Assembly: GCA_029555085.1 (NCBI GenBank)
Contig: JAKPTO010000026.1
Span: 37,217-101,216, forward strand
DNA: 64,000 nucleotides
Source: a bacterium
Lineage (GTDB): Bacteria; Patescibacteriota; Patescibacteriia; UBA1558; S5-K13
Direction of reading: 5' to 3'
Positions 13,304-36,600 of this stretch are shown here, in pieces. The first letter of the stretch is position 1, and each line of letters opens with the position of its first letter. Below the pieces are notes generated by a model. The model did no database searches. It saw nothing but the letters and a program-made list of their open reading frames with translations, and was not told where the DNA came from. The position numbers and the translations under genes are program-made.

Positions 13304-13531
13304 TTATTGTTTATTTTTCAAATATGATTTTATTTCGGCAATTGTAAAACGTTTATTGGTTTGGAGCCGTTCTATTTCTTTTATTGTTTTTAATGCTTTA
13401 CTTTTTTCATATAAACGATACCCGCCTCTTGTAAAAGAATCGGGTTTTAATAAACCCTCCTTGGTATAAAAATGTATTGCCGATGGCAATCTATTTATAT
13501 GAGACGCGAGTTCTCCAATTTTTAGTAACAT
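13304..13531 (-). CDS. MerR-family HTH transcriptional regulator (short)
   Basis: IGELASHINRLPSAIHFYTKEGLL...GYRLY, a MerR N-terminal HTH. Confidence 0.6.
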   Translation of the reverse strand: MLLKIGELASHINRLPSAIHFYTKEGLLKPDSFTRGGYRLYEKSKALKTIKEIERLQTNKRFTIAEIKSYLKNKQ

Positions 13532-14812: not shown

Positions 14813-17800
14813 TTATTCTTCTATTGTCTCTATTGTGACTTCTGTTTCTGTTATTGTTGTTTCTGTTGTTTCCTCTGCCGAAGTTTCCTGTTCTGTGGTT
14901 GTATCTGTTTGAGTTGTGTCTATTGAGGTTTCCGTGGTTTGATTACCTGATGAGATATCATCCTCTATTGTAGTTTCTGTTGTGTCTTCTATTGGAGTTT
15001 CTTGTTCTGTGGTTGTTTCTGTTTGAGTTGTGTCTATTGAGGTTTCTGTGGTTTGATTACCTGATGAGATATTGTCCTCTGTTGTTGTTTCTGTTGTGTC
15101 TTCTATTGGAGTTTCTTCTATTAAACCCTGCTCTGTTGAAGATGAAATCAATTCTGATGTTCCATCGCTACTAAATATCATTCCCTTGTATGCTCCGAAT
15201 GAATGCCAGTCAAATATCACATCAGTTTCTTGAGTATTTTCTATCTTTATCACAAAACCATTCTTTGTAACTTCGTCTATATAATAACCGCCATTGATTA
15301 ATGCGCGTGGAGAAATCGTTATAACTGGATCATTTCTATATTCATGCTCAAACATGACTGCTGTACTTGTTGCGCCTGTTAAAATCTTTGCTTGACCAAC
15401 CGTATCACGACCTAAATCAACTAATCCCTCAACTTGCAATGCGCCAGACAATACCAAATCTTCTAATGCGTCAAGCGACATTCCAAATTGCGCTCTAATT
15501 TCATTAATTTGTTGCTGTTGTTCTTGTATTGCTGAAACCATTACTGGCGTAAATGATTCATAGTCAATTGATTTGTTTCCACTTTCATCAATATTTAAAA
15601 GTTCTGGCGCAATTTCTTCTACTTGAGTTGTTATAAATCCTAATTTATTAATTTGTGTTTCATTTTCTATCCATACGAAATTTACTGCTTCAATGTCTGT
15701 TAATTTATTAAGCGAAATTATTCCATCTAATTGATCTATTGTTGCATTTTCTACAATTTGTTCTGAAGATGGGACAGAATTATTTAATTGATTTCTTAAA
15801 TTAGTAATTTCATTATTCAATGAATCAAATCTTTGTTCTATGTTATATGAATCTATAATGCTTTGTATTTCTGAAATATTTTCATCTTTTGCTTCTAAGA
15901 CCTTAGTTGTCACCTCTTTTTCAATTTCATTCACTGTTACACTCTTATTGTTTCTTGAAATTAATACATTTATAGTTCCAAAATCTCCACTAAATGATTC
16001 AAGCGCAACTCCGACTGTTGAGTCGCCCTGATTTGCTTTCATTAAATATCCTTGTCTTGATGCACTTGTCAAAGAATCACCCGGATTAATATCTCCATTT
16101 TCATTTGAGACAAATGCTGGAATCTGACCTAAAAGCGCTACTAATTTATAATTTGGATTATTTTTGTATTCTTCTTTTGAATTTCCTATAAATCCAGGCT
16201 TGGTTGAAATAATTCCAATAATATTTGAATCACTTGATGTGGCGCACCTTGATATAGCATTGTTATTTGCAAAGTCAATACATACAACCTCTCCTGATGA
16301 AATATTTGTATTATTAGTATAAAAATATTCTGCATAGTCAGCTGCTGGTGTGTCATAACCAGTATCAGCTAAAACTAAGCCATCGGAGCTAACCGTAAAG
16401 ACATTATCCCCTTCCGAATTCTGCAAAACAAATCCCAATACTTTTTCCTTTCCAAGATTTTTTATCGTGGTTCGACCAATATAATCTACTGAAAAAAGAG
16501 TTTCTTCGTATTCCACCCTACTTTGTATCTCAAATAAATTAGCGGAAGGGTGAGCTGATGTATTTACTACTTTTAACACCGGAACATGCCCCAAGTCACT
16601 AACTATTGTAGCTGATTTAATTAATTCTATAGGTACATCCGCGATTATTTTAGATTGCGATAGTGTTAAAGGGGAAACATTATTGGTTTCATCTCTAAAT
16701 TCTAATGTCCCATATGCATATGAAGAAGAATGTGGTCTTATTGCCCAAGTAGATGTTCCTACGTGAATTTCTTCTGCCCAAAGATCAGTCCATCTATAAT
16801 CTGATGAACCAAGAGTATAGGTTAAATTTGACTCAGGAACAATATCTCGCATAGTTGATGTTCCTGTTACATTGAGTGTTCCAGCACCTGTATTTATTAC
16901 TAAATCTGTTCCGTTCCATAAAATATTTGCATCTTGATCTTCTCCGAGATAGAGAGCAGCATTATCTTCGTCTATATAAACATTACCTGTAGCAAAAGCT
17001 CGAAAATTAGCAAGATCTGCACGTGAATGACCTAACCATATCTTAGACGACGGTTGAGTGGCAAAAAAACTAGAGAGAGTATATATAAGACCATTAACTC
17101 TAAGAGCGCTACCAAAATATGAATGACCTTTTACATCTAAAGTTCCTTCTACATATAAATCATTATCATCAAGTTCAAGGGTACTAACTCCGCTATTTGA
17201 TATTGCATTATATGGTAACGCGCTTACTCCACCTATATTAAATACATTATTATTAGCAAATACTATATGACCACCTGTAGTATTTATTGTTAAATCTCCT
17301 GAAGAATCAGTTCCAAATGTTGTTGAAGTTGCAGAATTGTATCCTAGTGTCAATTGTGGTGAAGTTGAGTTTACTACATGAAGCGCGGATGACGGCGCTG
17401 TAATACCGATACCGACATTACCACCATTAAAATATGATGCACCCCTAGAATGCAGTAAAATAGTCGAGTCATTAGATGAATTTCTCATGGTAAGGGATGT
17501 ATTAGATCCGCTACGCAACAAAACTCCTCCTGAACTAGGCACAATATTTAACTGGCCAGACGCTCTAATTTCCTGATTTCCAGATGATGGGAAAAATGAT
17601 ATAGATCTAGTTTTAGTAGAATCATAAAAATAAACATCTCCAGTAACATCTAGAGTTGCTTGCGGATCATTTGTCCCAATTCCGACCCTTCCTGAATTAT
17701 AATAAATACCATTACCATATGCGTTTGGGGTCCACCGGGATGACACAATTGGCGATCCGTTTATAGAAAATCCGGCTGCATCTACTATTCCAGTTGAAGC

Positions 17801-20356
17801 AGTGATAGTTGCACGACCGCCGACTGATAAGTTATTCGTTAGTGTAGTGGCACCGTTTAAAGTTATAGTATCGTCACTATTTGCATATAAAATTCTTCCC
17901 CAATCACCATCACTGGCTCCATATTTTACAAACGCAGTTCCTCCACCCACGCCATAAGAACCCATTGGTGCGGTATAACCAGCAGCAAGATGTTCATCTG
18001 ATATAACAATATTCATTTCTCCTCCATAACCATCTACAACAAAACTTGCTATTGTATTAACATTACTATCAACTACTGTTAGCGCATACTGTGGTGTTGT
18101 GGTACCGATTCCGACGTTGCCTGATCCGACATTAACTGCTATGTTATTATAATGCATTATATCGTTGTAACCGCTAATATCTACAGCCTCATAAACTACC
18201 ATTGGTGCATCTCCCGCTAAATCATATATACCAAACTCATCGTTGCTAAACATTCCACCATTACCAATATAAAAACCTCCTTTGCTATAATCGCCACTTT
18301 CAAAACTAGCAATCATATCTGTACTTGAAACATGTAAACCGCTCAGAGGATCTGTCGTCCCTATCCCAACATTTCCTGAGTTATAGTAAATATCAGATCC
18401 ATTTGTAATCCACTGAGATGATACAATTGGCGAGCCATTTATAGAAAATCCGGCTGCATCTACTATTCCGGTTGAAGCGGTGATAGTTGCGCGACCGCCG
18501 ACTGATAGATCGCCTATAAACGAAGAAGCGCCTGATTGTAATATTTTTAATACTGTACCACCATAATAATAAGCATTCTCACTAGTATCATACACGGCTA
18601 TATAAGTATCATCACCCTTATTAATTAAACCTATTTCATCAGTTATGGCGCCAGAAACCAATGCTACTGGACCATATAAACCATTAGCAATTATCTCTGA
18701 TCCAAAATCAGCAATTCCCGTTAAAGCAGTAATAGTTACCTTGCCTCCTATTGATATATCTCCGGTAAAATTAGCTCCTGATAAAAGTGCATAAGAAGTT
18801 GAAGCAGCAGTCCACACAGGATCTAATTCTGTAATTAAACTTCCAAGTGGTGAACCATTCCAATAAAGATCTCCACCTAGATTATATAATGTATCTACTG
18901 TTACAGCTGGAGTTGAAGATGCGATATTCAAACCATTATTTGTTACTACTAATCCCATTGCGGTTGTTGTTGCAAACGAAGAACTTCCAGTTACTATTAA
19001 ACTAGCAGATGAATATAAATCTGATGATAAATTTACAGGACCGTCAAAAGTATTTATTCCCGTCCATGTATTATTATCAGATAAAGACACCCCTCCCCCA
19101 TTTTGAACTATCGTAGTTCCACCACCAATAAAATTATATACGCCCCCAGTAAAAGACCCGTCCTCCCCTTTATCTCCTTTGTCTCCTTTTTCGCCAGTAT
19201 CTCCTTTTGGTCCAGCATCTCCCTTGTCTCCTTTTTCACCTTTTACCAAAATTGTTTTTTGGATAACCTGCGTATCACCATTTGCTGTATGATAATTTTG
19301 AATTATTTGGGGTTGAACTTTGTCGGTAGCCCCGAGATAAATATTTTTTATCTCCTGCGTTTCAGCTGCATCTCTTATAAATCGAACAACGCTATCCCTA
19401 AGAACTAAATTTATTGATAAAACTTTATTCGCAAATTTTTTTGATATATTCTCAGAATAATCTCTATATTTATTTAAAGAAACAAGAGAATTAATTATTT
19501 TCTGTAAAAATGTTAGCTTAGATGAAATATTGACAGACACCTCGCTTGCGCCAAGTACTCTATGAGATGGGTTATTTTCTGTATAATAATTATCTTTTTT
19601 ATTTAAAAACGCTCTTGGGTTAAAATATGAAATCCTATCAACAACAGAATGAGCTAATTCTTTATAATTATTTTTATAGCGTTTTAATAAATTAAAATTA
19701 TTAAGTTGTGAATTTCTTAAAAATTTACCAAAATTTGTTAATTTATTTTTTATGTTTGAAAATTGATATTTGTAAGCATTGGAAAATTTCTCAGAAGAAA
19801 GTGATAAAATTCTTTCTACTTTATTTTGATTTTCTCCATAAGTACCGAGAGCAGAAGGAATAAAAAATCTCATTGTCAAAATTAATAAAAAACTTATAGC
19901 TAAAAAATTTGCCAATCCAATTAATTGATTCGGAGAATGTGGTTTTGGGGATCTAAACTTTGAAGATTTTAAATTAGAATATTTTTTAGACTTATCAAAT
20001 TTAAAAAATGTAAAAACTGACAATAAAAAATTTCTAAAAATGTTTACTATATGATAAAAAGTTTTTTTAAATTTTTCTTTATTAAAAAAATGAATTTCTG
20101 CTAAAAGTATGTCTGGTAAATTTGGTTTTCTATTAAGTGAAACATCTTCATACTGAATTTGAAAATTCATCTCACTATTCTTCTCTTCATACTCTTTCAA
20201 GTAGCTTTTTTTCGTAAACCATATTCCATCAATTTTCTCTGCTTTTAATTTTCCCTGCCTCGCGCGAAGAGATAAATATTCTTGTGAATATGAACAATAC
20301 TTTGTCGCCTGTGACAAAGTAATGTATGGTTCTATTTGTTGATTTTGTTCGTCCAT
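14813..20356 (-). CDS. Giant surface protein (1847 aa) with an N-terminal excisionase-type HTH, TM anchor, collagen-like Gly-X-Y repeats, duplicated tail-fibre-like modules, a peptidase-S74-like intramolecular chaperone domain and acidic T/E-rich C-terminal repeats
   Basis: ITLSQATKYCSYSQEYLSLRARQGKLKAEKIDGIWFTKKSYLKEY is HTH_17-like. GEKGDKGDAGPKGDTGEKGDKGDKGEDG is collagen-like. LSVGGRATITASTGIVDAAGFSINGSPIVSS occurs twice. GFITTQVEEIAPELLNIDESGNKSIDYESFTPVMVSAIQEQQQQINEI is S74-chaperone-like. Confidence 0.6.
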   Translation of the reverse strand: MDEQNQQIEPYITLSQATKYCSYSQEYLSLRARQGKLKAEKIDGIWFTKKSYLKEYEEKNSEMNFQIQYEDVSLNRKPNLPDILLAEIHFFNKEKFKKTFYHIVNIFRNFLLSVFTFFKFDKSKKYSNLKSSKFRSPKPHSPNQLIGLANFLAISFLLILTMRFFIPSALGTYGENQNKVERILSLSSEKFSNAYKYQFSNIKNKLTNFGKFLRNSQLNNFNLLKRYKNNYKELAHSVVDRISYFNPRAFLNKKDNYYTENNPSHRVLGASEVSVNISSKLTFLQKIINSLVSLNKYRDYSENISKKFANKVLSINLVLRDSVVRFIRDAAETQEIKNIYLGATDKVQPQIIQNYHTANGDTQVIQKTILVKGEKGDKGDAGPKGDTGEKGDKGDKGEDGSFTGGVYNFIGGGTTIVQNGGGVSLSDNNTWTGINTFDGPVNLSSDLYSSASLIVTGSSSFATTTAMGLVVTNNGLNIASSTPAVTVDTLYNLGGDLYWNGSPLGSLITELDPVWTAASTSYALLSGANFTGDISIGGKVTITALTGIADFGSEIIANGLYGPVALVSGAITDEIGLINKGDDTYIAVYDTSENAYYYGGTVLKILQSGASSFIGDLSVGGRATITASTGIVDAAGFSINGSPIVSSQWITNGSDIYYNSGNVGIGTTDPLSGLHVSSTDMIASFESGDYSKGGFYIGNGGMFSNDEFGIYDLAGDAPMVVYEAVDISGYNDIMHYNNIAVNVGSGNVGIGTTTPQYALTVVDSNVNTIASFVVDGYGGEMNIVISDEHLAAGYTAPMGSYGVGGGTAFVKYGASDGDWGRILYANSDDTITLNGATTLTNNLSVGGRATITASTGIVDAAGFSINGSPIVSSRWTPNAYGNGIYYNSGRVGIGTNDPQATLDVTGDVYFYDSTKTRSISFFPSSGNQEIRASGQLNIVPSSGGVLLRSGSNTSLTMRNSSNDSTILLHSRGASYFNGGNVGIGITAPSSALHVVNSTSPQLTLGYNSATSTTFGTDSSGDLTINTTGGHIVFANNNVFNIGGVSALPYNAISNSGVSTLELDDNDLYVEGTLDVKGHSYFGSALRVNGLIYTLSSFFATQPSSKIWLGHSRADLANFRAFATGNVYIDEDNAALYLGEDQDANILWNGTDLVINTGAGTLNVTGTSTMRDIVPESNLTYTLGSSDYRWTDLWAEEIHVGTSTWAIRPHSSSYAYGTLEFRDETNNVSPLTLSQSKIIADVPIELIKSATIVSDLGHVPVLKVVNTSAHPSANLFEIQSRVEYEETLFSVDYIGRTTIKNLGKEKVLGFVLQNSEGDNVFTVSSDGLVLADTGYDTPAADYAEYFYTNNTNISSGEVVCIDFANNNAISRCATSSDSNIIGIISTKPGFIGNSKEEYKNNPNYKLVALLGQIPAFVSNENGDINPGDSLTSASRQGYLMKANQGDSTVGVALESFSGDFGTINVLISRNNKSVTVNEIEKEVTTKVLEAKDENISEIQSIIDSYNIEQRFDSLNNEITNLRNQLNNSVPSSEQIVENATIDQLDGIISLNKLTDIEAVNFVWIENETQINKLGFITTQVEEIAPELLNIDESGNKSIDYESFTPVMVSAIQEQQQQINEIRAQFGMSLDALEDLVLSGALQVEGLVDLGRDTVGQAKILTGATSTAVMFEHEYRNDPVITISPRALINGGYYIDEVTKNGFVIKIENTQETDVIFDWHSFGAYKGMIFSSDGTSELISSSTEQGLIEETPIEDTTETTTEDNISSGNQTTETSIDTTQTETTTEQETPIEDTTETTIEDDISSGNQTTETSIDTTQTDTTTEQETSAEETTETTITETEVTIETIEE
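14816..15130 (-). repeat. In-frame tandem repeat of about 114 nt (38-aa unit ETPIEDTTETT.EDNISSGNQTTETSIDTTQT.TTTEQ, about 2.6 copies) encoding the C-terminus of the giant protein
   Basis: Near-identical consecutive nucleotide blocks are visible in the sequence and in the translated C-terminus. Confidence 0.8.
17600..18580 (-). repeat. Two tandem ~680-nt modules inside the giant gene, with a near-identical core of more than 60 nt
   Basis: gatgacacaattggcgatccgtttatagaaaatccggctgcatctactattccagttgaagcagtgatagttgcacgaccgccgactgata at about 17741-17830 recurs at about 18420-18510. The offset is 679 nt. Confidence 0.75.
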
Positions 20357-20759
20357 ATTGACAAGCTTGTATGAAATTTTATTTTTGTTTTAGATTTCAT
20401 ATCTTCTATTATTATATATAATTATATATAATTTACCCGATATATTCAATACTTTTTATCCGATATATTATTTTTTATACCCGATACGGTTTTTATCCCT
20501 TTATTTAAAGGACAAAAATCATATGGGATAAATTTTTATAAAATAAGACAAAGCATATAAATTTGACAAATTTTCAATAAAAAAATAATATTTTTCAAAA
20601 CCCAAATAAATTACCTATACAAATATTTATAGAAGTGGAAAACTATATAACCAATTTAGTTTAAAAATTAAATAAAATTACCTGAAAGTTAGAGTGCTTA
20701 CTTTATTATTTTTAACAAAGGCGCTATACTAAAATTATAAATATATCAAAAAATAATAT

Positions 20760-21521: not shown

Positions 21522-21912
21522 GGGGATGTATCAATTTGATGCATAAAAAATTTGTTCTTTGGCAAGTCAAGTTTTGCGAAACTTGTAAAAAACGCTAAAT
21601 CATAAATGTCAAATCATTTATAGAAAAAGTTAAAGTTGCATTTAGTAATCCAGCTTTCAACTTTTCAATTGCTTAATCTTTTTTAAAAATTAAGCCATCC
21701 TCTATCTTCATACTCGATGGGGATTTACGAGGGTGTTATATTTTCGAGTTATACTATGGTAATTTCCATGTGCCATAGTGAAAACTTATGGAATATATAA
21801 ATAATATTTTTCTTATTTATAGTTATTTATAGAATTTTAAAAATAAGATAAACTTGTAGATAAAGAATGAATTGTTAGGCAGACAGGGGTTCAAATCCCC
21901 TCATCTCCACCA
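21522..21912 (+). ncRNA. ssrA: Transfer-messenger RNA (tmRNA, ssrA)
   Basis: The 5' GGGGAUG pairs with the 3' CAUCUCC acceptor strand. The 3' end GGGGTTCAAATCCCCTCATCTCCACCA is a T-arm, acceptor and CCA. A PK1-like TTTGCGAAAC element is present. Candidate tag frame is GCA TTT AGT AAT CCA GCT TTC AAC TTT TCA ATT GCT TAA. Confidence 0.8.
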
Positions 21913-23195: not shown

Positions 23196-23272
23196 GGAGC
23201 GGTAGTTCAGTTGGTTAGAACGCCTGCCTGTCACGCAGGAGGTCGAGGGTTCGAGTCCCTTCCGTTCCGCCA
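23196..23272 (+). tRNA. tRNA-Asp (anticodon GUC), CCA encoded
   Basis: Manual fold: GGAGCGG acceptor, anticodon stem-loop CCTGC-CTGTCAC-GCAGG, T-arm GAGGG-TTCGAGT-CCCTT, 77 nt. Confidence 0.85.
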
Positions 23273-30154: not shown

Positions 30155-32746
30155 TTATTTACTAAAAACCAGTTTCTTGTCAAAAGAAAATCCGTTTACA
30201 TTTACCCGACAAATATAAACACCGCTTGAGCAAATTTTTCCTGAATCATCTTTTGAATCCCAGTTAATAGTTGCTGATTTGGATTTTGTGGGGACAAACT
30301 TTTTTACAAGTTGTCCTTTGATGTTATAAATCGAAATTTGAACTTCAGATGGTTCTTTTGTGTCTTCTATATCAAACATTAAGCTTACTGTGGAGTTAAA
30401 TGGATTTGGAAATATTTCAAATTTCTTTTTTAATAAATTCACTGTTTGACTTGGTGCGAGTATAAGTGACACATCATCAATCCAAACAGGAACATCTTGT
30501 TCTCCCAAATTCCATGAAATGCGTGCAATTCCAGAACTTGTGGCAGTAAAGCTCATTGTATAATTTTGCCAATCAGTTCCAGTGCTCACAACTTGCCATA
30601 GGCCAAAATTATTCCAGGGAGAATTTTCATTATATAACTCTACCTGGATTTGTCTTTGTGAGGTAGATTTCGCCCAGAAAGACAAAGTATAATTTTGACC
30701 CGATACAATGTTTAAATTCTGGTACAATTGAACCTCGAAGTGCAAACCATTTTGATTGGGATCAATAAATATTGAGTTATTCCCTGAATGGTAAATAGAA
30801 TTATCAATATAATAACTCGCTGTGGAATTGAGATCGCCAACCTCAAATGGTGCAAAATTTCCTGTTTCAAAACCAGGATTTATTATTAAATTATCTCCTT
30901 CTGTTTCCATATCAGATATTTTTTCAAAAACAACATTATCAAAATATTTACAACCAGCTGACTCGCCAATCATAAAATTCAAACGCGCTAATTGATCAGT
31001 TGTATTTGCTATAAAAATATACTGATATTTTTTCCAAGTTGAAGTGAGATTAATCTCTTTCCATAGACCATAATTATTCCATGGATCATTGTTGTTTTGT
31101 ATGCAAAATTTAATTCCCGATGCAGGATTGGATTTTGCCCAAAAAGAAACATTATATGACTCGCCTGATTCAATTTCAACAAGTTGCATAAGTTCTTCTT
31201 CGTAAAATAATCCGGAATCACCAATATTGATTTCTGCTTTAAAGTTTCCATCAACGCAATCACCGGATGTTATATCGAAACTTGCGCTATTTCTACTGTC
31301 ATTTAAAATCCAATAATTACAAATTCCAGAATCAAATCCACCGTCTTCGAAGTCACCACCCTGATAATCAACCATTCCACCACCAGCAAAATATTGAATA
31401 TTTTCTCCGGATTGAAATGAATTAACATCGCTATCGGAAACTTCTAAAACATTAGCAAAATTAAACCCATAGGTATTGAAGGTTGATTCGTCTATAATGA
31501 GACGACGCAATCCATTTTCTATATAATAACAAGCTGGACCTGGACCAGAAATTAATTTTCCATCCATGATTTTTTCATAGCTTACAAATGGCGCAATCTG
31601 ATAATAATTTAAAACATTTTGAGTAACTACTATATTAAAATTTGAATGATAATAGTTAATCATATAAACATTGTCAGAAAGCAATCTCAGAAGAATCTTT
31701 TGTCCAGTGTATGAAGAAGAAACTTCAATCCCTCGTTTAATAACATATCGTTCGTTCATGTTATTTACATTTTGCAATACTGTTCCGTATGGATAATCGC
31801 TTGAAGATGTAAGTTCAGATCCTTCCGCAAATTGAGATAAATATGAACTTGTTGTTGGAATCCAAACATCCGCAGAGTATCCTAATTGTTGCCAATTATT
31901 TACCCTTCGCTTCACAATTGTCGTAGAATTGTTTGACTGATAATCAAATACCCATCTCTGAGAATTCTCATCATAAACACAAGTTCCAACTTTTGGACTA
32001 ATATCAGGACCAATTGAAAATGAATTGAATTCTTCTTGACTAATTTCAACTGCATCAGACCAGTCAAATCCCCAAGTATAAAAAGGTGTCTCACTAGTAA
32101 ATCGTTGCATTTGCCTGTCACGAATCCAATAATAATTTGGAGTATTAGTTACATGAACCAATAAATCATCTGGTAGAATTCTTGGTTGTGAAACAACAAT
32201 GCCTGGGAGTGATGGCGGGTTTGATACGAAATAATGTTTATCTGGATTACAACCATTATTATATTGTTGTGTGTTGTTACTATACCAACCATAGGGATCA
32301 ATTGGTTCATTATTATAGTAAACACCAAAGTGAAGGTGAGGGTTGGTTGAATAACCAGTGTCACCCACCTTTCCTATAAATTGTCCTTGGTAAACAAATT
32401 CTCCGACAGAAACAGTTGCAGTATGGTAAAGCATGTGCGCGTATATTGTTTTGTAACCATTTCCATGGTCTATTTTCACATAATTACCATAATCCGTTCC
32501 TGTTCCATCTGGAATATCTCTTTGCACCGCAATAACCTGTCCACCATAAGCAGAAAGAATTCTTGTTCCCTCTACTGCGGAATAATCAATTCCGTAATTA
32601 TAGTTATAACTATAACTAGGTGGATATTGCCAACCAGATGAAATTATAAAATTTCCTTCAATGGGGAGTGTGAATATATGATCCACACCGAACAAATAAC
32701 CACAACACATTGTGATTATTACTAGAATTGTCATGAGAGTTTTCAT
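30155..32746 (-). CDS. Secreted M23-family metallopeptidase with a large beta-rich middle region (CBM-like repeats) and a T9SS-type C-terminal sorting/Ig-like domain
   Basis: Signal peptide; M23 motifs HGNGYKTIYAHM and NPHLHFGV. The C-terminus FPNPFNSTVSLMF...ISIYNIKGQLVKKF...SGVYICRVNVNGFSFDKKLVFSK matches the Por secretion-tail pattern. Confidence 0.7.
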   Translation of the reverse strand: MKTLMTILVIITMCCGYLFGVDHIFTLPIEGNFIISSGWQYPPSYSYNYNYGIDYSAVEGTRILSAYGGQVIAVQRDIPDGTGTDYGNYVKIDHGNGYKTIYAHMLYHTATVSVGEFVYQGQFIGKVGDTGYSTNPHLHFGVYYNNEPIDPYGWYSNNTQQYNNGCNPDKHYFVSNPPSLPGIVVSQPRILPDDLLVHVTNTPNYYWIRDRQMQRFTSETPFYTWGFDWSDAVEISQEEFNSFSIGPDISPKVGTCVYDENSQRWVFDYQSNNSTTIVKRRVNNWQQLGYSADVWIPTTSSYLSQFAEGSELTSSSDYPYGTVLQNVNNMNERYVIKRGIEVSSSYTGQKILLRLLSDNVYMINYYHSNFNIVVTQNVLNYYQIAPFVSYEKIMDGKLISGPGPACYYIENGLRRLIIDESTFNTYGFNFANVLEVSDSDVNSFQSGENIQYFAGGGMVDYQGGDFEDGGFDSGICNYWILNDSRNSASFDITSGDCVDGNFKAEINIGDSGLFYEEELMQLVEIESGESYNVSFWAKSNPASGIKFCIQNNNDPWNNYGLWKEINLTSTWKKYQYIFIANTTDQLARLNFMIGESAGCKYFDNVVFEKISDMETEGDNLIINPGFETGNFAPFEVGDLNSTASYYIDNSIYHSGNNSIFIDPNQNGLHFEVQLYQNLNIVSGQNYTLSFWAKSTSQRQIQVELYNENSPWNNFGLWQVVSTGTDWQNYTMSFTATSSGIARISWNLGEQDVPVWIDDVSLILAPSQTVNLLKKKFEIFPNPFNSTVSLMFDIEDTKEPSEVQISIYNIKGQLVKKFVPTKSKSATINWDSKDDSGKICSSGVYICRVNVNGFSFDKKLVFSK

Positions 32747-33634: not shown

Positions 33635-36600
33635 TTATTTTTTATATAAAGTGGAAACAAATCTTTGCATTCTGTCATTCAATACATCTAAAGCAATTCT
33701 TGTACTTTCTGGTGCGTTTTTTGGTATGCTCTTTAATGTGAGTTCCCAAAATTTTATCTCAAAATTATTTAACTTACTACTACCTGTTCTTTCCAGCTTT
33801 ATATCGCTTAATAATTTAAATGCTTTATCGTGTACAATGTCTTTATTAGCACTCTCCGTAATTATTCTATATAATTCAGTACCTCGTTCTCGGCTATAAA
33901 AAAATGTTCCAACTGAACTAACATCTGATGTCTGTTTAATAATGGAACCATTTTCATCAAATACTTGTTTAAGTGTTCCGCTTCTTCCCGCCTCCTTAAA
34001 AGTAACGAGCTTTGTATAATCATCGAGCCATTTCTCTGTTATTGTTCCTGTATTTGTTTTTATAATTTCTATATTTGGCTCGGAAATCAATTCTTGAAAA
34101 TTATTCTCTGTAATTTGCTCTAAGCCGGGACTTTGTGGATCAAGATCTGCATAATATTCCCCATGGTCTTTTTGAATTTCCAACACCCGATTATTACCAA
34201 CATTCGTTTCAAATTTAACTGGAATATTGTCTTCAACATCTTTCAATGCCTCTTCCAACTCAGAAAATGTATTAACTCTTTTAACTCCTAGTATCTCTGT
34301 TTGATTTTGAGCTATAGGCACACGATCTAATATATCTTCGACAGGTGTCCGTCCTGATATACCTTTGGTAGGCACATGATCTGGCTCAATAGTCAAATTT
34401 TGAACTGAGGATACTTGGTCTGATATATCTTCTATATTTGACTCAGAAATCAATTCTTGAAAATTATTCTCTGTAATTTGCTCTAAACCAGGGAGATTAG
34501 GATTAAAGTCTGTGTAATATTCTCCATTGTCCTCTATAATCCGTACAACATTACCACCAATTTCTACATCAGCCGAAGCACCTGCCTCTTTAAACTGAAA
34601 TACTTCTTTCAAATCAGAAAAATCCCTAACCACTGGAACCTCTGATGTTTCTATAGGTACATTAGTCAATGTATCTGGGGTGACTTCTATACTTTCTGTA
34701 GGTACATGATCTAACATATCTTCAGTGGGTACATGATCTGGTTTAATAACTGGGATTTCTGTATTACCATTATTAAACTCATCTTGCAACCTCGCTATTT
34801 GAAAATTTAACTCCTCTCCAGTATTTTGCTGTTGTGAAAGTAATTCTCGAGTTGCATTTAGTTCCTCAGATATCTTCGCTTGTATATTGGATGGAATATT
34901 TGGATCATCTAGCATTTCTTCTAATCTGGTAATTGATAATTTTGACTTTATTATATCATCATTTAACTCAAAATATTTACTTTGTAGCTCTTCTATTTGC
35001 TCAGGATAATTTGACTTAACTATATCTTCTACGGGTAGCACTTCTCTTACATTTGTTGGTCTGACAATTTCTGAAACATTAGGACCATGTTTGGGCTTAA
35101 TGACGCCCATTACATTATCTACATAATGTTTGTAAAAACTTTCATAAGACTTGGGTTTGACAAAGGCAAAAACCTCGTTAGTTTCTGGATCAACGACAAC
35201 TCTTGCTCCCGGCGCAACAACATTTGCATCAAAATTTTTAAGAATCAATGGTTCGCCATTAGGTCCAGAAGTAACAAGTGTCATTTTTGAACCACGAGGC
35301 ATGCTTATACCCAAAGTTTCAGAAACACTAGAGCCCTTAGCTACTGGAACGCCTTGATCTGCCAACTCTTGAATACGTTGAGGGTTCAAACCCTTAATAT
35401 CTTGAAAATTAGATACATCTGATTTTTTTGGAGAAAAACTTTGTGATGCCTCATTTATATCATCCGCTCGACTTGTTGAGATAACCTGATCTTTTTTACC
35501 AAAAACAGAGTTCTTCAAATTCTCAAAAGACTTTCCTAATCTCTCCATTCTTGAAACTATATCAGCATAACTTACAAAATTATCTTTCATGTTTTCCAAT
35601 ACATTACCCTGAGTAAATGTTTTGGTAAAACATTGTACCATGTTATCCACACTTGCACCAGATGTTTGTATTCCTGATAAAGCTTGCGTTCCCATACCAA
35701 GAGCCATTAATAATTCCCCCCAAGCTCTCATCATGGTAGTTTTTTTATCAAAACCTTTTAATTTTCTAACATCACTATGTTTTTTTAATTTATCATTTTC
35801 TACATAAAAACTTGATTCATATCGTTTTCCAGATAATCCATAATATGTTTCTAAAAACATTGTTTTAAATGCATCTCCAAGATATTGATGTGCTTTCATT
35901 TTTTCGCCAACCTTATTCCAGGAATATTCCTTTTGATATTTCAATGCTGATTTATCTAATTTTCCACCAAATGCAAATATTCCATACATAGCACCTCGAA
36001 GTCCAGCCGCACCTATCCCGCCACCAAAAACCATAGCCGTATTAAGTGCATCTTTTACAAGTATACTTCCATTTACTGTTCCTTGTATATAATCTTGCAA
36101 AATATAATCTATTTTTTTTGACCTTTGTTTTCTTAAATCATTTTTTGATTCCAAATTCGTAAGTAGAACTTTGTTTAATCTATTTCTCATTGTCATCTGA
36201 TCATGATCAGAAATAATATACAATAACTTTTCTTTATCTGTTAATGAACCTTCGTTAAACTTTTTTTCTATTTCTTGTCTTTTTTCTTTTGGTAAATCAT
36301 AATAATTCTGAGATCTGGCATTCTTTATCATTTCATTATATTGCATTGCTTTTTCTTTTACATCATCTACAGAAATTTTTTCATTTTTTATAAAATTTTC
36401 TCTAATTTTATTATTCTCCATTGAAAGAGTTTTTATTTTACGCTCTAATTCTTCTCTTTCTGTTTCATCTTTTGTGTTTTTATATATCTCTACATATCTA
36501 GATATTGCAGCAACTCTTCTTTTGTAATTATCATCTTGGTAAAGCTTCTGAAATTTTTCCTTATTAGAAGAAATCAACTCTGCTAAATCGCTTGTTTTCT

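What the first reader, a model, noticed from the sequence alone, without database searches (positions are those of the whole stretch)
14813..20356. 1847-aa mosaic giant surface protein: excisionase-type HTH, TM anchor, collagen repeats, duplicated tail-fibre-like modules, an internal S74-type chaperone domain and an acidic repeat tail
The domain combination is unusual. An N-terminal HTH_17-like DNA-binding segment on the cytoplasmic side of a signal-anchor is not expected on an extracellular fibre. A collagen Gly-X-Y stretch precedes beta-rich modules typical of phage tail fibres. The peptidase-S74 intramolecular chaperone-like domain, normally C-terminal and autocleaved, is here followed by about 300 further residues. 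That tail includes a Thr/Glu-rich 38-aa tandem repeat, possibly glycosylated or a charged spacer. The protein could be a cell-surface fibre or adhesin of an episymbiont, or a domesticated phage-fibre gene.
Basis: partly seen in the sequence, partly recalled or inferred. Interest (0 to 1): 0.6.

Follow-up and report, generated by a model that had tools for sequence, protein, structure and literature searches.

The report
Membrane-anchored surface fibre with DNA-binding head
This gene from a tiny episymbiont-type (CPR/Parcubacteria) bacterium encodes a long, trimeric, phage-fibre-like surface adhesin that starts inside the cell with a DNA-binding domain; thousands of related surface proteins share this design, and their promoters share a matching palindromic DNA box, which suggests the fibre regulates its own gene.

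Summary
The reading needs three corrections.

1. The N-terminal excisionase/MerR-type winged helix followed by a single TM anchor is not an oddity. It marks a Patescibacteria-restricted family: 3,995 cluster representatives, with the module within 30 aa of the N-terminus in 148 of 150, and 1-3 copies per protein.
2. The S74-like segment has lost its catalytic Lys (S1530/V1535).
3. After the S74-like segment comes an H-type-lectin-like tip domain, then the acidic 38-aa repeats.

New findings: palindromic TATC(G/C)GATA boxes sit in and around the gene's core promoter. They are about 22-fold enriched upstream of family genes in 66 of 80 genomes, and nearly absent from neighbouring intergenic regions. 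A T7/T6 homopolymer polymorphism between the HTH and the TM fuses or splits the two parts in near-identical strains.

Best explanation: a membrane-tethered, self-regulating adhesin fibre. The architecture is well supported. Binding of the HTH to the boxes is inferred, not shown.

The parts
14813..20356 (-). Whole ORF, 1847 aa, giant surface-fibre protein
   Evidence: The identical protein is in public collections (HNZ86114.1, 'hypothetical protein [bacterium]').
20168..20344 (-). N-terminal excisionase/MerR-type winged-helix (HTH_17-like) module, residues 5-63, predicted cytoplasmic
   Evidence: 15 columns are invariant, including the recognition helix Y-L-S-L-R-A-R-Q-G.
20084..20090 (-). T7 homopolymer (A7 on the + strand) at codons 89-91, in the linker between HTH and TM. 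The T6 allele in other assemblies splits the gene into 102-aa and 1736-aa ORFs.
19853..19924 (-). Single transmembrane anchor, residues 145-168, N-in/C-out by the positive-inside rule
   Evidence: 104 of 110 family members have a TM after the module.
19241..19852 (-). Juxtamembrane N/K/S-rich stalk, residues 169-372; no family assignment
   Evidence: Weakly alignable to P0006, P0008, P0010 and P0012.
19151..19240 (-). Collagen-like stretch, 10 G-X-Y triplets, residues 373-402
16460..19150 (-). Gly/Ser/Thr-rich beta-type fibre body, residues 403-1299. It holds four GxVGIGTxxP modules (661, 746, 889, 979) and a 31-aa duplicate (617-647 = window 18416-18508; 843-873 = window 17738-17830).
   Evidence: No phage tblastn match.
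15947..16459 (-). Peptidase_G2 / phi29-gp12-type intramolecular chaperone domain, residues 1300-1470. The predicted autocleavage site is A1339|D1340, with invariant D1340 and E1343 (window 16328-16339).
15776..15940 (-). Long helices (probable trimeric coiled coil), residues 1473-1527
15482..15769 (-). Degenerate S74-type chaperone-like domain, residues 1530-1625. The Ser is kept (S1530) and the catalytic Lys is replaced by V1535.
15197..15403 (-). H-type-lectin-like beta-sandwich, residues 1652-1720, the probable receptor- or glycan-binding tip
   Evidence: Pfam H_lectin sub-threshold in 3 family members; pLDDT 86-95; SLL-2, HPA, discoidin II, R2 pyocin fibre tip
14816..15142 (-). Thr/Glu-rich acidic tail, residues 1739-1847, with a 38-aa tandem repeat x2.3 (14852-15117)
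20421..20449 (-). Best sigma70-like promoter match of the region: TTGAAT-17-TATAAT
   Evidence: consensus match only
20432..20532 (.). Four operator-like boxes related to TATC(G/C)GATA. Three are direct copies at 20432-20442, 20455-20465 and 20476-20486 (21-23 bp apart; one lies inside the -35/-10 spacer and one abuts the -35). An inverted copy lies at 20522-20532.

Best explanation
The gene encodes a homotrimeric fibre anchored in the cytoplasmic membrane. It is a candidate host-adhesion fibre of a Parcubacteria-type CPR bacterium, assembled from modules also used by phage fibres.

Order of parts (shown): a cytoplasmic excisionase/MerR-type winged helix, a basic linker, one TM helix, a stalk, a collagen-like segment, a repetitive beta-rich shaft, a phi29-gp12-type (G2) autochaperone, a coiled coil, an S74-like chaperone remnant, an H-type-lectin-like tip, and an acidic Thr/Glu tail. 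The HTH-linker-TM head is the conserved hallmark of a very large Patescibacteria-specific family of surface proteins whose ectodomains are otherwise diverse (shown).

Inferred mechanism:
(i) The C-terminal chaperone-type domains nucleate trimerisation of the shaft outside the cell. The G2 domain may then cut itself at A1339|D1340. The S74-like remnant cannot cut because it lacks the Lys.
(ii) The lectin-like tip binds a glycan on the host surface.
(iii) The three cytoplasmic HTH domains bind the TATC(G/C)GATA boxes that overlap the gene's own core promoter. The fibre would then act as a membrane-tethered autoregulator, ToxR/CadC-like in logic. This is feasible because in an ultra-small cell the chromosome is always close to the membrane. 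Box 3 lies in the -35/-10 spacer and box 2 abuts the -35, a geometry that suggests feedback repression or MerR-like spacer control.
(iv) A 1-nt change in a T7 tract between HTH and TM uncouples the two parts in some near-identical strains.
For: Architecture.

Family:
- 18 of 20 whole-protein homologues are giant Parcubacteria proteins that share the N-terminal module at 50-65% identity.
- An exhaustive profile search gave 3,995 representatives (1,623 at E<=1e-10), 83-6,890 aa long.
- The module starts within 30 aa of the N-terminus in 148 of 150. 104 of 110 have a TM after it, at a median gap of about 42 aa, and 94 have exactly one TM.
- The recognition helix is invariant.
- The exact peptide YLSLRARQG gave 336 confirmed loci, almost all in Patescibacteria MAGs.

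G2 domain:
- Homologues pass the Pfam PF11962 cut-off.
- D1340 and E1343 are invariant in 20 sequences.
- Residue 1 ('DFAEYF') of PDB 3gqh_A, the 163-residue released fragment of phi29 gp12, aligns with D1340.
- 3suc and 3gqh are the top fold hits.

S74-like segment: V1535 sits where relatives have the Lys. The dyad is indispensable for cleavage (PMC8326128).

DNA boxes:
- In the 64-kb window, exact matches occur only in this promoter: 12 hits with <=1 mismatch against 3.4 expected, reached in 0 of 100 shuffles.
- There are 137 sites in 66 of 80 family upstream regions, against 6.1 expected and a maximum of 14 in 200 shuffles.
- Density is 3.2 per kb (47 of 78 regions) against 0.37 per kb (4 of 89) in the other intergenic regions of the same loci.
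- The boxes are concentrated at -300..0 and conserved in the two closest relatives. They overlap the best promoter match.

Alleles.
Against: - No experiment or co-variation test links the HTH to the boxes. Another regulator could bind them, for example DnaA for the TTATCCACA element, or the nearby MerR-family ORF.
- The window's own HTH copy is a divergent member (DGIW instead of GRNW in the wing; Pfam E=0.069).
- The boxes are AT-rich and the promoters of close relatives are conserved overall, so the footprint among the window, L006 and L007 is weak evidence on its own.
- Trimer state, topology, cleavage and lectin activity are all predictions. The lectin and collagen Pfam scores are below their cut-offs.
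- If the G2 site cuts, the lectin tip would be released from the fibre, which sits awkwardly with an adhesin role.
- The segment after the TM (PSALG|T) could be a signal-peptidase site. In that case the fibre would not stay joined to the HTH.
- A/T runs of 7 or more are common here (153 in the window), so the T6/T7 polymorphism may be incidental.
Confidence: 0.55

Rival explanations
1. The protein is a surface fibre as described, but the N-terminal winged helix is not a transcription regulator. It is a cytoplasmic docking or sorting module, for example for a dedicated export or insertion route, for polar placement, or for nucleoid or DNA tethering. The upstream boxes would then be bound by a separate soluble factor that controls a surface-protein regulon: DNaA for TTATCCACA, or a free HTH paralogue.
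For: The module is extremely conserved across proteins with unrelated ectodomains, as expected for a tag that is read by one common partner. TTATCCACA is the canonical DnaA-box sequence (established knowledge). In family promoters it sits at a fixed distance from the -35. Many short family members exist in the database, although many of them are fragments.
Against: The fold and profile are those of DNA-binding excisionase/BldC/MerR domains, with a basic recognition helix and wing. A palindromic box specific to these genes' promoters is what a cognate operator would look like. No candidate partner gene is conserved next to the family genes examined.
Confidence: 0.28
2. The fibre is secreted or released rather than membrane-tethered. 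The hydrophobic segment would act as the h-region of a long signal peptide cleaved after PSALG. The HTH-TM stub would stay in the membrane as a by-product, or as a counter of exported fibres. In the T6 allele the fibre would be made on its own from an internal start.
For: A small-x-small motif (A-L-G) directly follows the hydrophobic segment. The split allele's 1736-aa ORF begins with a basic n-region plus the same hydrophobic segment, so it looks like an ordinary signal peptide. There is no LPXTG or other recognisable wall anchor.
Against: Most family members carry a different conserved TM-end motif, GG(V/I)FGK(E/D)S, that is not a classic signal-peptidase site. No signal-peptide predictor was available.
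Confidence: 0.2
3. The HTH and the fibre are really two genes, and the fusion in this window is an assembly or sequencing error in a homopolymer. The true fibre start would be downstream of the HTH.
For: Five assemblies from five samples have T6 and call a 102-aa ORF plus a 1736-aa ORF.
Against: Ten distinct 1847-aa sequence variants on about 22 contigs from several sources carry the fused frame. The same HTH-linker-TM-ectodomain fusion is found in thousands of homologues from other genera. The 1736-aa ORF would need a TTG start with no evident ribosome-binding site.
Confidence: 0.05
4. The gene is a prophage or domesticated phage tail-fibre gene, and the HTH is a leftover phage excisionase fused by accident.
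For: The G2 and S74 autochaperones, the collagen-like stretch and the lectin-like tips are typical of phage fibres and tailspikes. HTH_17 is an excisionase family.
Against: The flanking genes are housekeeping genes (IleRS, SmpB, tmRNA, IF3, L35, L20), with no phage genes nearby. The fibre body has no tblastn match in 50,697 phage genomes. The HTH-TM head is under strong purifying selection across a huge cellular family.
Confidence: 0.04

Closest known systems
ToxR / CadC / TcpP-type membrane-bound one-component transcription regulators (established knowledge)
   Same: An N-terminal cytoplasmic DNA-binding domain, a single TM helix and an extracytoplasmic C-terminal part. The regulator acts on DNA while tethered to the membrane.
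   Different: Those proteins use an OmpR/PhoB-type winged helix and a small periplasmic sensor domain. Here the DNA-binding domain is excisionase/MerR-type (HTH_17), often in 2-3 tandem copies, and the outside part is a 1,700-aa trimeric fibre. DNA binding is not shown here.
MyRF (eukaryotic membrane-bound transcription factor with a phage-type ICA/S74 domain; PMC8326128)
   Same: One polypeptide combines a DNA-binding domain, a TM anchor and a phage-tailspike intramolecular chaperone that drives trimerisation.
   Different: [quoted passage not shown] Here the chaperone-type domains are extracellular and more than 1,100 residues from the TM. The S74-like one lacks the Lys, so cleavage could not free the HTH.
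Bacillus phage phi29 gp12 pre-neck appendage, C-terminal autochaperone (Peptidase_G2, PDB 3gqh/3suc)
   Same: The same fold is the top Foldseek hit, with profile homology. The D-[FY]-A-E-Y-F motif lies exactly at the start of the released phi29 fragment.
   Different: In phi29 the domain is the C-terminal end, 163 residues long. Here it is followed by about 380 more residues (coiled coil, S74-like, lectin-like, acidic tail), and the protein is cellular and membrane-anchored. Cleavage is untested.
Endosialidase / T5 pb1 C-terminal intramolecular chaperone (Peptidase_S74)
   Same: The core of the domain is homologous (aligns to relatives that score E=1e-12 to 1e-16 against PF13884), and it follows a trimeric fibre.
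   Different: The score is below the Pfam cut-off, the catalytic Lys is replaced by Val, and the domain is internal rather than terminal.
BldC / Xis / RdfS / TorI small excisionase-type winged-helix proteins
   Same: Best structural matches (prob 0.99, TM 0.64-0.72), the same beta-alpha-alpha-beta-beta-alpha topology, and basic recognition helix and wing.
   Different: Those are free, soluble proteins of about 55-70 aa. Here the module is fused to a TM anchor and a giant ectodomain, and it forms its own tight subfamily with an invariant recognition helix.
Collagen-like Gram-positive adhesins (Scl1/Scl2) and other giant surface proteins of Patescibacteria (PMC13059738)
   Same: A collagen-like trimerising stretch in a surface protein. 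Very large CPR proteins are known to be preferentially surface-targeted adhesin candidates.
   Different: There is no LPXTG anchor. The anchor is an N-terminal TM preceded by an HTH. I found no description of that head or of its promoter boxes in the searched literature.

Membership tests
HTH_17 / excisionase-type winged helix (Pfam PF12728, TIGR01764) | Profile match above the curated cut-off | tested here: inconclusive
   The window copy scores 13.9 bits against a cut-off of 27. 19 of 27 aligned family copies match at E<=0.01, and full proteins such as P0098 score 44.9 bits. 11 of 27 match TIGR01764.
HTH_17 / excisionase-type winged helix (Pfam PF12728, TIGR01764) | beta-alpha-alpha-beta-beta-alpha winged-helix fold | tested here: met
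   AF2 pLDDT 91.5. Foldseek top hits are BldC, RdfS, Pukovnik Xis, TorI, RacA and MerR N-domains, at prob 0.99.
HTH_17 / excisionase-type winged helix (Pfam PF12728, TIGR01764) | Sequence-specific DNA binding | not testable with these tools
   The only evidence is indirect: a conserved palindromic box upstream of family genes.
Peptidase_S74 intramolecular chaperone (PF13884) | Profile match above the cut-off | tested here: not met
   18.3 bits against a cut-off of 22 on the isolated segment, matching only profile positions 15-56. Homology to true S74 domains of relatives is clear.
Peptidase_S74 intramolecular chaperone (PF13884) | Catalytic Ser-Lys dyad (endoNF S911/K916) | tested here: not met
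   S1530 aligns with the Ser. V1535 aligns with the Lys of P0034, P0060, P0061, P0004 and P0008. The dyad is indispensable (PMC8326128).
Peptidase_S74 intramolecular chaperone (PF13884) | C-terminal position, released after folding | tested here: not met
   The domain is followed by about 220 residues, including a folded lectin-like domain. Relative P0034 shows the same internal position.
Peptidase_G2 / phi29 gp12 autochaperone (PF11962) | Profile match above the cut-off | tested here: inconclusive
   The window segment scores 23.9 bits against a cut-off of 25. Homologues P0036, P0043 and P0044 score 26.3-29 bits.
Peptidase_G2 / phi29 gp12 autochaperone (PF11962) | Fold of the phi29 gp12 C-terminal fragment | tested here: met
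   The domain has pLDDT above 90. 3suc and 3gqh are the top Foldseek hits, at E=2e-5 and 7e-5. Profile against PDB sequence gives 3gqh_A at E=1.6e-4.
Peptidase_G2 / phi29 gp12 autochaperone (PF11962) | Cleavage-site motif (x|D-x-x-E) at the domain start | tested here: met
   D1340 and E1343 are invariant in 20 family sequences. D1340 aligns with residue 1 of the released phi29 fragment.
Peptidase_G2 / phi29 gp12 autochaperone (PF11962) | Actual autocleavage | not testable with these tools
   Needs expression of wild-type protein against D1340A and E1343A mutants.
Collagen triple helix (PF01391) | Uninterrupted G-X-Y repeats long enough for a stable triple helix | tested here: inconclusive
   There are 10 triplets. 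18.4 bits against a cut-off of 27.2.
H-type lectin (PF09458) | Profile match and fold | tested here: inconclusive
   Pfam 15.8 bits against a cut-off of 24, with similar weak hits in two other family members. The fold matches SLL-2, HPA and discoidin II at prob 1.0, E=2.5e-3 to 1e-2. Sugar-binding residues were not examined.
ToxR/CadC-type membrane-bound regulators | OmpR/PhoB-type winged helix as the DNA-binding domain | tested here: not met
   The domain is excisionase/MerR-type. The protein may work like these regulators but is not a member.
Prophage / phage tail fibre | Phage gene neighbourhood, or close phage homologues | tested here: not met
   The neighbours are housekeeping genes. No tblastn hit in phage genomes.
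LPXTG sortase-anchored adhesins (Scl-like) | C-terminal LPXTG sorting signal | tested here: not met
   The protein has no LPxTG motif. NCBIfam Scl hits cover only the collagen stretch, at 23 bits against cut-offs of 325-400.

The most novel reading that the evidence does not exclude
In Patescibacteria, thousands of surface proteins, including giant adhesion fibres, carry their own transcription-factor domain on the cytoplasmic side of the membrane anchor. This domain binds TATC(G/C)GATA operators in the promoters of the same genes. It would give a single-polypeptide link between the cell-surface attachment apparatus and its own transcription: feedback on fibre number, or signalling of host contact. 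It might act in cis while the long mRNA is still being made. A slippery T-tract between HTH and TM could switch individual fibres between the tethered and free-regulator states.
Probability: 0.35. Interest if true: 0.85.

Novelty: new variant of a known kind. Interest (0 to 1): 0.72.

Why it matters
CPR/Patescibacteria are mostly uncultured episymbionts. How they build, regulate and use their attachment structures is largely unknown. This locus points to a family-wide design of about 4,000 protein clusters, in which a DNA-binding domain is fused through one membrane helix to diverse surface proteins, together with a matching family-specific promoter element. If the two are cognate, this is a simple and previously undescribed regulatory principle for the surface proteome of ultra-small cells. 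It also supplies concrete tools: a defined operator, a 60-aa binding module and a promoter architecture. These would make gene regulation in these organisms testable in vitro without cultivation. The protein also shows phage-type autochaperones (G2 and a Lys-less S74) reused in a cellular, membrane-anchored fibre.

Tried and rejected
- A word-index search with the 76-aa N-terminus alone returned only 13 short proteins and fragments. It did not map the family but exposed the split allele. The exhaustive profile search was needed instead.
- The second giant ORF of the window (33635-38758, 1707 aa) was checked as a possible paralogue. It has no HTH module, no TM and an acidic helical N-terminus. 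The single box nearby lies inside a small ORF. I rejected it as related.
- The downstream ORFs (140 aa, 159 aa) have no family hits. They are not conserved next to distant homologues, which are followed instead by an ~815-aa TPR protein.
- Phage origin: tblastn of residues 403-1340 against phage genomes found nothing.
- A self-BLASTP for internal repeats gave nothing. The duplicates were confirmed by DNA BLAST and string search instead.
- Reverse test: I scanned metagenomes for the 16-mer CCGATAKTTATCCACA. Only 6 of 104 usable hits were followed by a family gene. All 6, and none of the other 98, had TTGAC at the promoter distance. This is suggestive, but too small and too biased for a regulon-exclusivity claim.
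- Seven literature searches found no description of the HTH-TM head or the box. The library is incomplete, so this is absence of evidence only.
- A KxYKxGKxW-type accessory-Sec signal was considered because of the K-x-x-K-x-G-R-x-W pattern. No such Pfam hit appeared and the fold is a winged helix, so I rejected it.
Full report
**The observation**

The window carries a 5,544-nt ORF on the minus strand (14813..20356, ATG start, 1847 aa). It lies among housekeeping genes: IleRS downstream; smpB, tmRNA, infC, rpmI and rplT upstream on the other strand. The DNA is 26-30% G+C, and the fibre body itself is 33-37%.

The identical protein exists in public data as 'hypothetical protein [bacterium]' (HNZ86114.1). 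Nine further 1847-aa variants lie on about 22 contigs. All detectable homologues are giant proteins of Parcubacteria/Patescibacteria MAGs. The gene is therefore a chromosomal gene of a CPR bacterium, not a prophage gene. The fibre body has no tblastn match in 50,697 phage genomes.

**N-terminal module**

- Scanned alone, residues 11-60 give only E=0.069 against Pfam HTH_17.
- This segment is nevertheless the best-conserved part of the protein. 18 of 20 homologues share it at 50-65% identity at their own N-termini, and three of them carry it twice in tandem.
- In an alignment of 27 copies, 15 columns are invariant, including Y-L-S-L-R-A-R-Q-G.
- 19 of the 27 copies match HTH_17 (best 6e-7) and 11 match TIGR01764 'excise'.
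- AlphaFold2 gives a confident beta-alpha-alpha-beta-beta-alpha model, pLDDT 91.5.
- Its best PDB matches are BldC, the RdfS and Pukovnik excisionases, TorI, RacA and MerR N-domains (prob 0.99, rmsd ~1.8 A).

The structure check is passed. The HMM check is passed at family level only.

**Anchor and topology**

There is one strong hydrophobic segment, at about residues 145-168. It is preceded by a K/R-rich stretch, with 7 K/R in the 25 residues before it against 3 after it. This fits an N-in/C-out orientation. A weaker hydrophobic stretch at 100-121 does not reach the threshold.

**The head is a family hallmark**

- An exhaustive HMM search of 1.84 billion representatives found 3,995 proteins at E<=1e-3, of which 1,623 score E<=1e-10. 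They are 83 to 6,890 aa long.
- Among the best 150, the module starts within 30 residues of the N-terminus in 148. 98 have two copies and 5 have three.
- Of the 110 with at least 120 residues downstream, 104 have a TM-like segment after the module, at a median gap of about 42 aa. 94 have exactly one such segment.
- The ectodomains differ: beta-helix/NosD, beta-propeller/LVIVD, S74 fibres, or nothing recognisable.
- A DNA-level scan of 185,579 species genomes with the peptide YLSLRARQG gave 336 confirmed loci. Among the 80 loci kept, the record titles are Nealsonbacteria, Paceibacterota, Komeilibacteria, Wildermuthbacteria, Portnoybacteria, Minisyncoccales and 'Patescibacteria group', plus many bins with generic or non-CPR names (uncultured 'Candidatus Saccharibacteria', 'Gammaproteobacteria' or simply 'bacterium') and five contigs of 2.5-23 kb in non-Patescibacteria bins.

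So the 'unusual combination' is in fact a widespread cassette specific to this lineage.

**The fibre**

- Residues 373-402 are 10 G-X-Y triplets. Their Pfam and NCBIfam scores are sub-threshold. The PHROG 'tail fiber' hits cover only this stretch.
- Residues 403-1299 are Gly/Ser/Thr-rich with almost no charge. They hold four GxVGIGTxxP modules and a 31-aa exact duplicate at 617 and 843.
- This part aligns at 24-31% identity with repetitive regions of other CPR giants.

**The C-terminal 550 residues: where the reading changes most**

(a) G2-type autochaperone, residues 1300-1470.
- The segment scores 23.9 bits against Peptidase_G2, whose cut-off is 25. Homologues retrieved with it pass the cut-off.
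- In a 20-sequence alignment the motif (A/G)-D-Y-A-E-Y-F is nearly invariant, and D1340 and E1343 are invariant.
- A profile of this alignment hits PDB 3gqh_A, the 163-residue C-terminal fragment of phi29 gp12. That chain's residue 1, 'DFAEYF', aligns exactly with D1340.
- The AF2 model of this domain has pLDDT above 90. Its best fold matches are pre-mature gp12 (3suc) and its fragment (3gqh).
- The protein therefore contains a phi29-type autochaperone with an intact cleavage motif. Cleavage at A1339|D1340 is predicted but untested.

(b) Residues 1473-1527 are long helices.

(c) S74-like segment, residues 1530-1625.
- It aligns with genuine S74 domains of relatives: P0034 at E=8e-12 and P0060 at 2e-16 against PF13884.
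- Where they read S-D-x-x-L-K-x-N, this protein reads S-S-E-Q-I-V-E-N.
- The Ser-Lys dyad (endoNF S911/K916) is indispensable for cleavage (PMC8326128). This domain is therefore probably a non-cleaving trimerisation remnant.

(d) Lectin-like tip, residues 1652-1720.
- This beta-sandwich has pLDDT 86-95.
- It matches H-type lectins (coral SLL-2, Helix pomatia agglutinin, discoidin II). It also matches the receptor-binding tips of the R2 pyocin fibre and the Pam1 tailspike (prob 1.0, E=2.5e-3 to 1e-2).
- Pfam H_lectin hits are weak but recur in three family members.

(e) Residues 1739-1847 are the Thr/Glu-rich tail with a 38-aa repeat x2.3. Similar acidic tails end several homologues.

Every recognisable module is of a kind that forms trimers in characterised proteins (established knowledge). 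A homotrimeric fibre is therefore the natural reading, though it is inferred.

**A promoter element that matches the head**

Upstream of the ATG there are three direct copies of ATATCGG(G/A)TAA, 21-23 bp apart, and a fourth inverted copy. The core, TATC(G/C)GATA, is a 9-bp palindrome.

- In the 64-kb window, exact matches to TATCGGRTAAA occur only here. There are 12 hits with <=1 mismatch against 3.4 expected, a count reached in 0 of 100 shuffles.
- The best sigma70-like match in the region is TTGAAT-17-TATAAT. One box lies inside its spacer and another abuts its -35.
- Across 80 family genes from different genomes, the relaxed palindrome occurs 137 times in 66 upstream regions. Shuffles give 6.1 on average and 14 at most.
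- The sites peak between -300 and 0.
- Their density is 3.2 per kb (47 of 78 regions), against 0.37 per kb (4 of 89 regions) in the other intergenic regions of the same loci.
- The boxes are conserved in the two closest relatives.

A second element, TTATCCACA (the DnaA-box sequence), shows a similar pattern.
- It occurs 55 times in family upstream regions and never in the control regions.
- It is orientation-biased.
- It usually sits 8-10 nt upstream of a TTGACA-like -35 and 1 nt downstream of a CCGATA half-box.
- The window's own promoter lacks this element.
- A reverse scan of metagenomes for the composite 16-mer returned mostly chance matches. The 6 instances followed by TTGAC at promoter distance were all followed, within 47-109 nt, by an HTH-family gene, against none of the other 98.

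The family genes therefore share a specific cis-regulatory module. That the N-terminal HTH is the protein that binds it is my inference. It rests on the invariant recognition helix, the DNA-binding fold family and parsimony.

**A frameshift polymorphism at the junction**

- The window has T7 at codons 89-91 (A7 at 20084-20090 on the + strand), between the HTH and the TM.
- Five assemblies from five samples have T6. That gives a 102-aa HTH protein and a 1736-aa ORF that would have to start at a TTG.
- One fused contig from the same JGI sample series shares 7 of the 8 SNPs with the split contigs. The indel therefore separates nearly identical haplotypes.
- The fused form is the majority: 10 variants on about 22 contigs. 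It is also the ancestral architecture.
- Whether T6/T7 is phase variation, a mutation in one lineage or an error cannot be decided without reads. A/T runs of 7 or more are common here, 153 in the window.

**Mechanism, with degrees of support**

- Shown: the domain order, family membership of the head, G2 homology with an intact motif, loss of the S74 Lys, and the promoter boxes with their family specificity.
- Inferred with good support: an N-in/C-out trimeric surface fibre with a lectin-like distal tip, acting as an adhesin.
- Inferred with moderate support (about 0.45): the cytoplasmic HTHs bind the boxes and feed back on the gene's own promoter. This is a ToxR/CadC-like logic, and it is plausible in cells so small that DNA is always near the membrane.
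- Open points: whether the G2 site cuts, which would detach the lectin-bearing C-terminal 508 residues or leave them non-covalently bound; whether signal peptidase cuts after PSALG; and what the acidic tail does.

**Comparison with known systems**

- The protein may work like ToxR/CadC but is not a member, because its DNA-binding fold is different.
- It resembles MyRF in combining a DNA-binding domain, a TM and a phage-type chaperone (PMC8326128). The order and the side of the membrane differ, so cleavage cannot release the HTH here.
- It contains a member-like G2 autochaperone and a degenerate S74 domain.
- Very large Patescibacteria proteins are already regarded as surface adhesin candidates (PMC13059738).
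- I found no description of the HTH-TM head or of its boxes in seven literature searches. No dedicated NCBIfam or Pfam model exists for it.

**Verdict**

The finding is more interesting than first described, because the odd N-terminus is a lineage-wide cassette with a matching promoter signature.

Noticed in passing
window 20084-20090 (codons 89-91 of the ORF); loci L001-L005, L086: A T7/T6 homopolymer polymorphism lies exactly between the HTH and the TM. T7 gives the fused 1847-aa protein and T6 gives 102-aa and 1736-aa ORFs. T6 is seen in five assemblies from five samples. A fused contig from the same JGI series shares 7 of 8 SNPs with the split ones.
   Followed up: partly
window 20432-20532; upstream regions of L006-L085, L087, L088: Palindromic TATC(G/C)GATA boxes overlap the core promoter. 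They are about 22-fold enriched upstream of HTH-family genes in 66 of 80 genomes, and about 9-fold denser there than in neighbouring intergenic regions.
   Followed up: yes
upstream regions of L010-L085 (e.g. L034 -111, L061 -97), L087 -54, L088 -305: The canonical DnaA-box sequence TTATCCACA occurs 55 times upstream of family genes and 0 times in control intergenic regions. It is orientation-biased, sits 8-10 nt before a TTGACA-like -35, and is often 1 nt after a CCGATA half-box. It is absent from the window's own promoter. The binding factor (DnaA or the HTH) is unknown.
   Followed up: partly
L087 12729-15173; L088 14599-17058: Two distant family members (P0002, P0008) are each followed directly by an ~815-aa TPR-repeat protein. 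The window gene is not. This could be a partner protein in part of the family.
   Followed up: no
proteins P0035, P0037, P0038, P0043 (also P0003): Several homologues carry a Pfam Intein_splicing (Hint-type) domain, above the cut-off, immediately upstream of the G2 autochaperone. That would place two self-processing modules side by side in some CPR fibres.
   Followed up: no
N-termini of P0003, P0007, P0015, P0017, P0019, P0020: A conserved motif GG(V/I)FGK(E/D)S marks the outer end of the TM helix in many family members but not in the window protein (FFIPSALGTYGE). It may be a processing or packing site.
   Followed up: no
window 30155-32746 (-): An 863-aa protein with Peptidase_M23, two CBM_4_9 domains and a Por_Secre_tail (T9SS-type C-terminal sorting) domain. 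This is a wall-degrading enzyme candidate with a sorting domain unexpected in a CPR genome.
   Followed up: no
window 33635-38758 (-): A second giant ORF (1707 aa) with no Pfam family, no HTH module and no N-terminal TM, and an acidic, helical-looking N-terminus. It is unrelated to the finding and of unknown function.
   Followed up: partly
window 13304-13531 (-): A 75-aa stand-alone MerR-family HTH ORF (MerR_1, E=7e-11) lies three genes downstream of the fibre gene on the same strand. It is an alternative candidate for binding promoter-spacer sites.
   Followed up: no
cluster members P0218 (1323 aa) + P0220 (506 aa), one 93,755-nt ENA contig: A second, different split of the same gene (1323 + 506 aa) appears in one assembly. 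The break point was not examined. It would fall near residue 1323-1340, close to the predicted G2 cleavage site.
   Followed up: no
window 16001-20000 vs flanks: The fibre body has higher G+C (33-37%) than the surrounding genome (22-30%). This may reflect its Gly/Ser/Thr-rich composition or a different history.
   Followed up: no
window 21522-21912 (+): A tmRNA gene (Rfam 91 bits) lies directly downstream of smpB, and tRNA-Asp is at 23196-23272. This is an ordinary context, useful only as a marker of a chromosomal housekeeping region.
   Followed up: no
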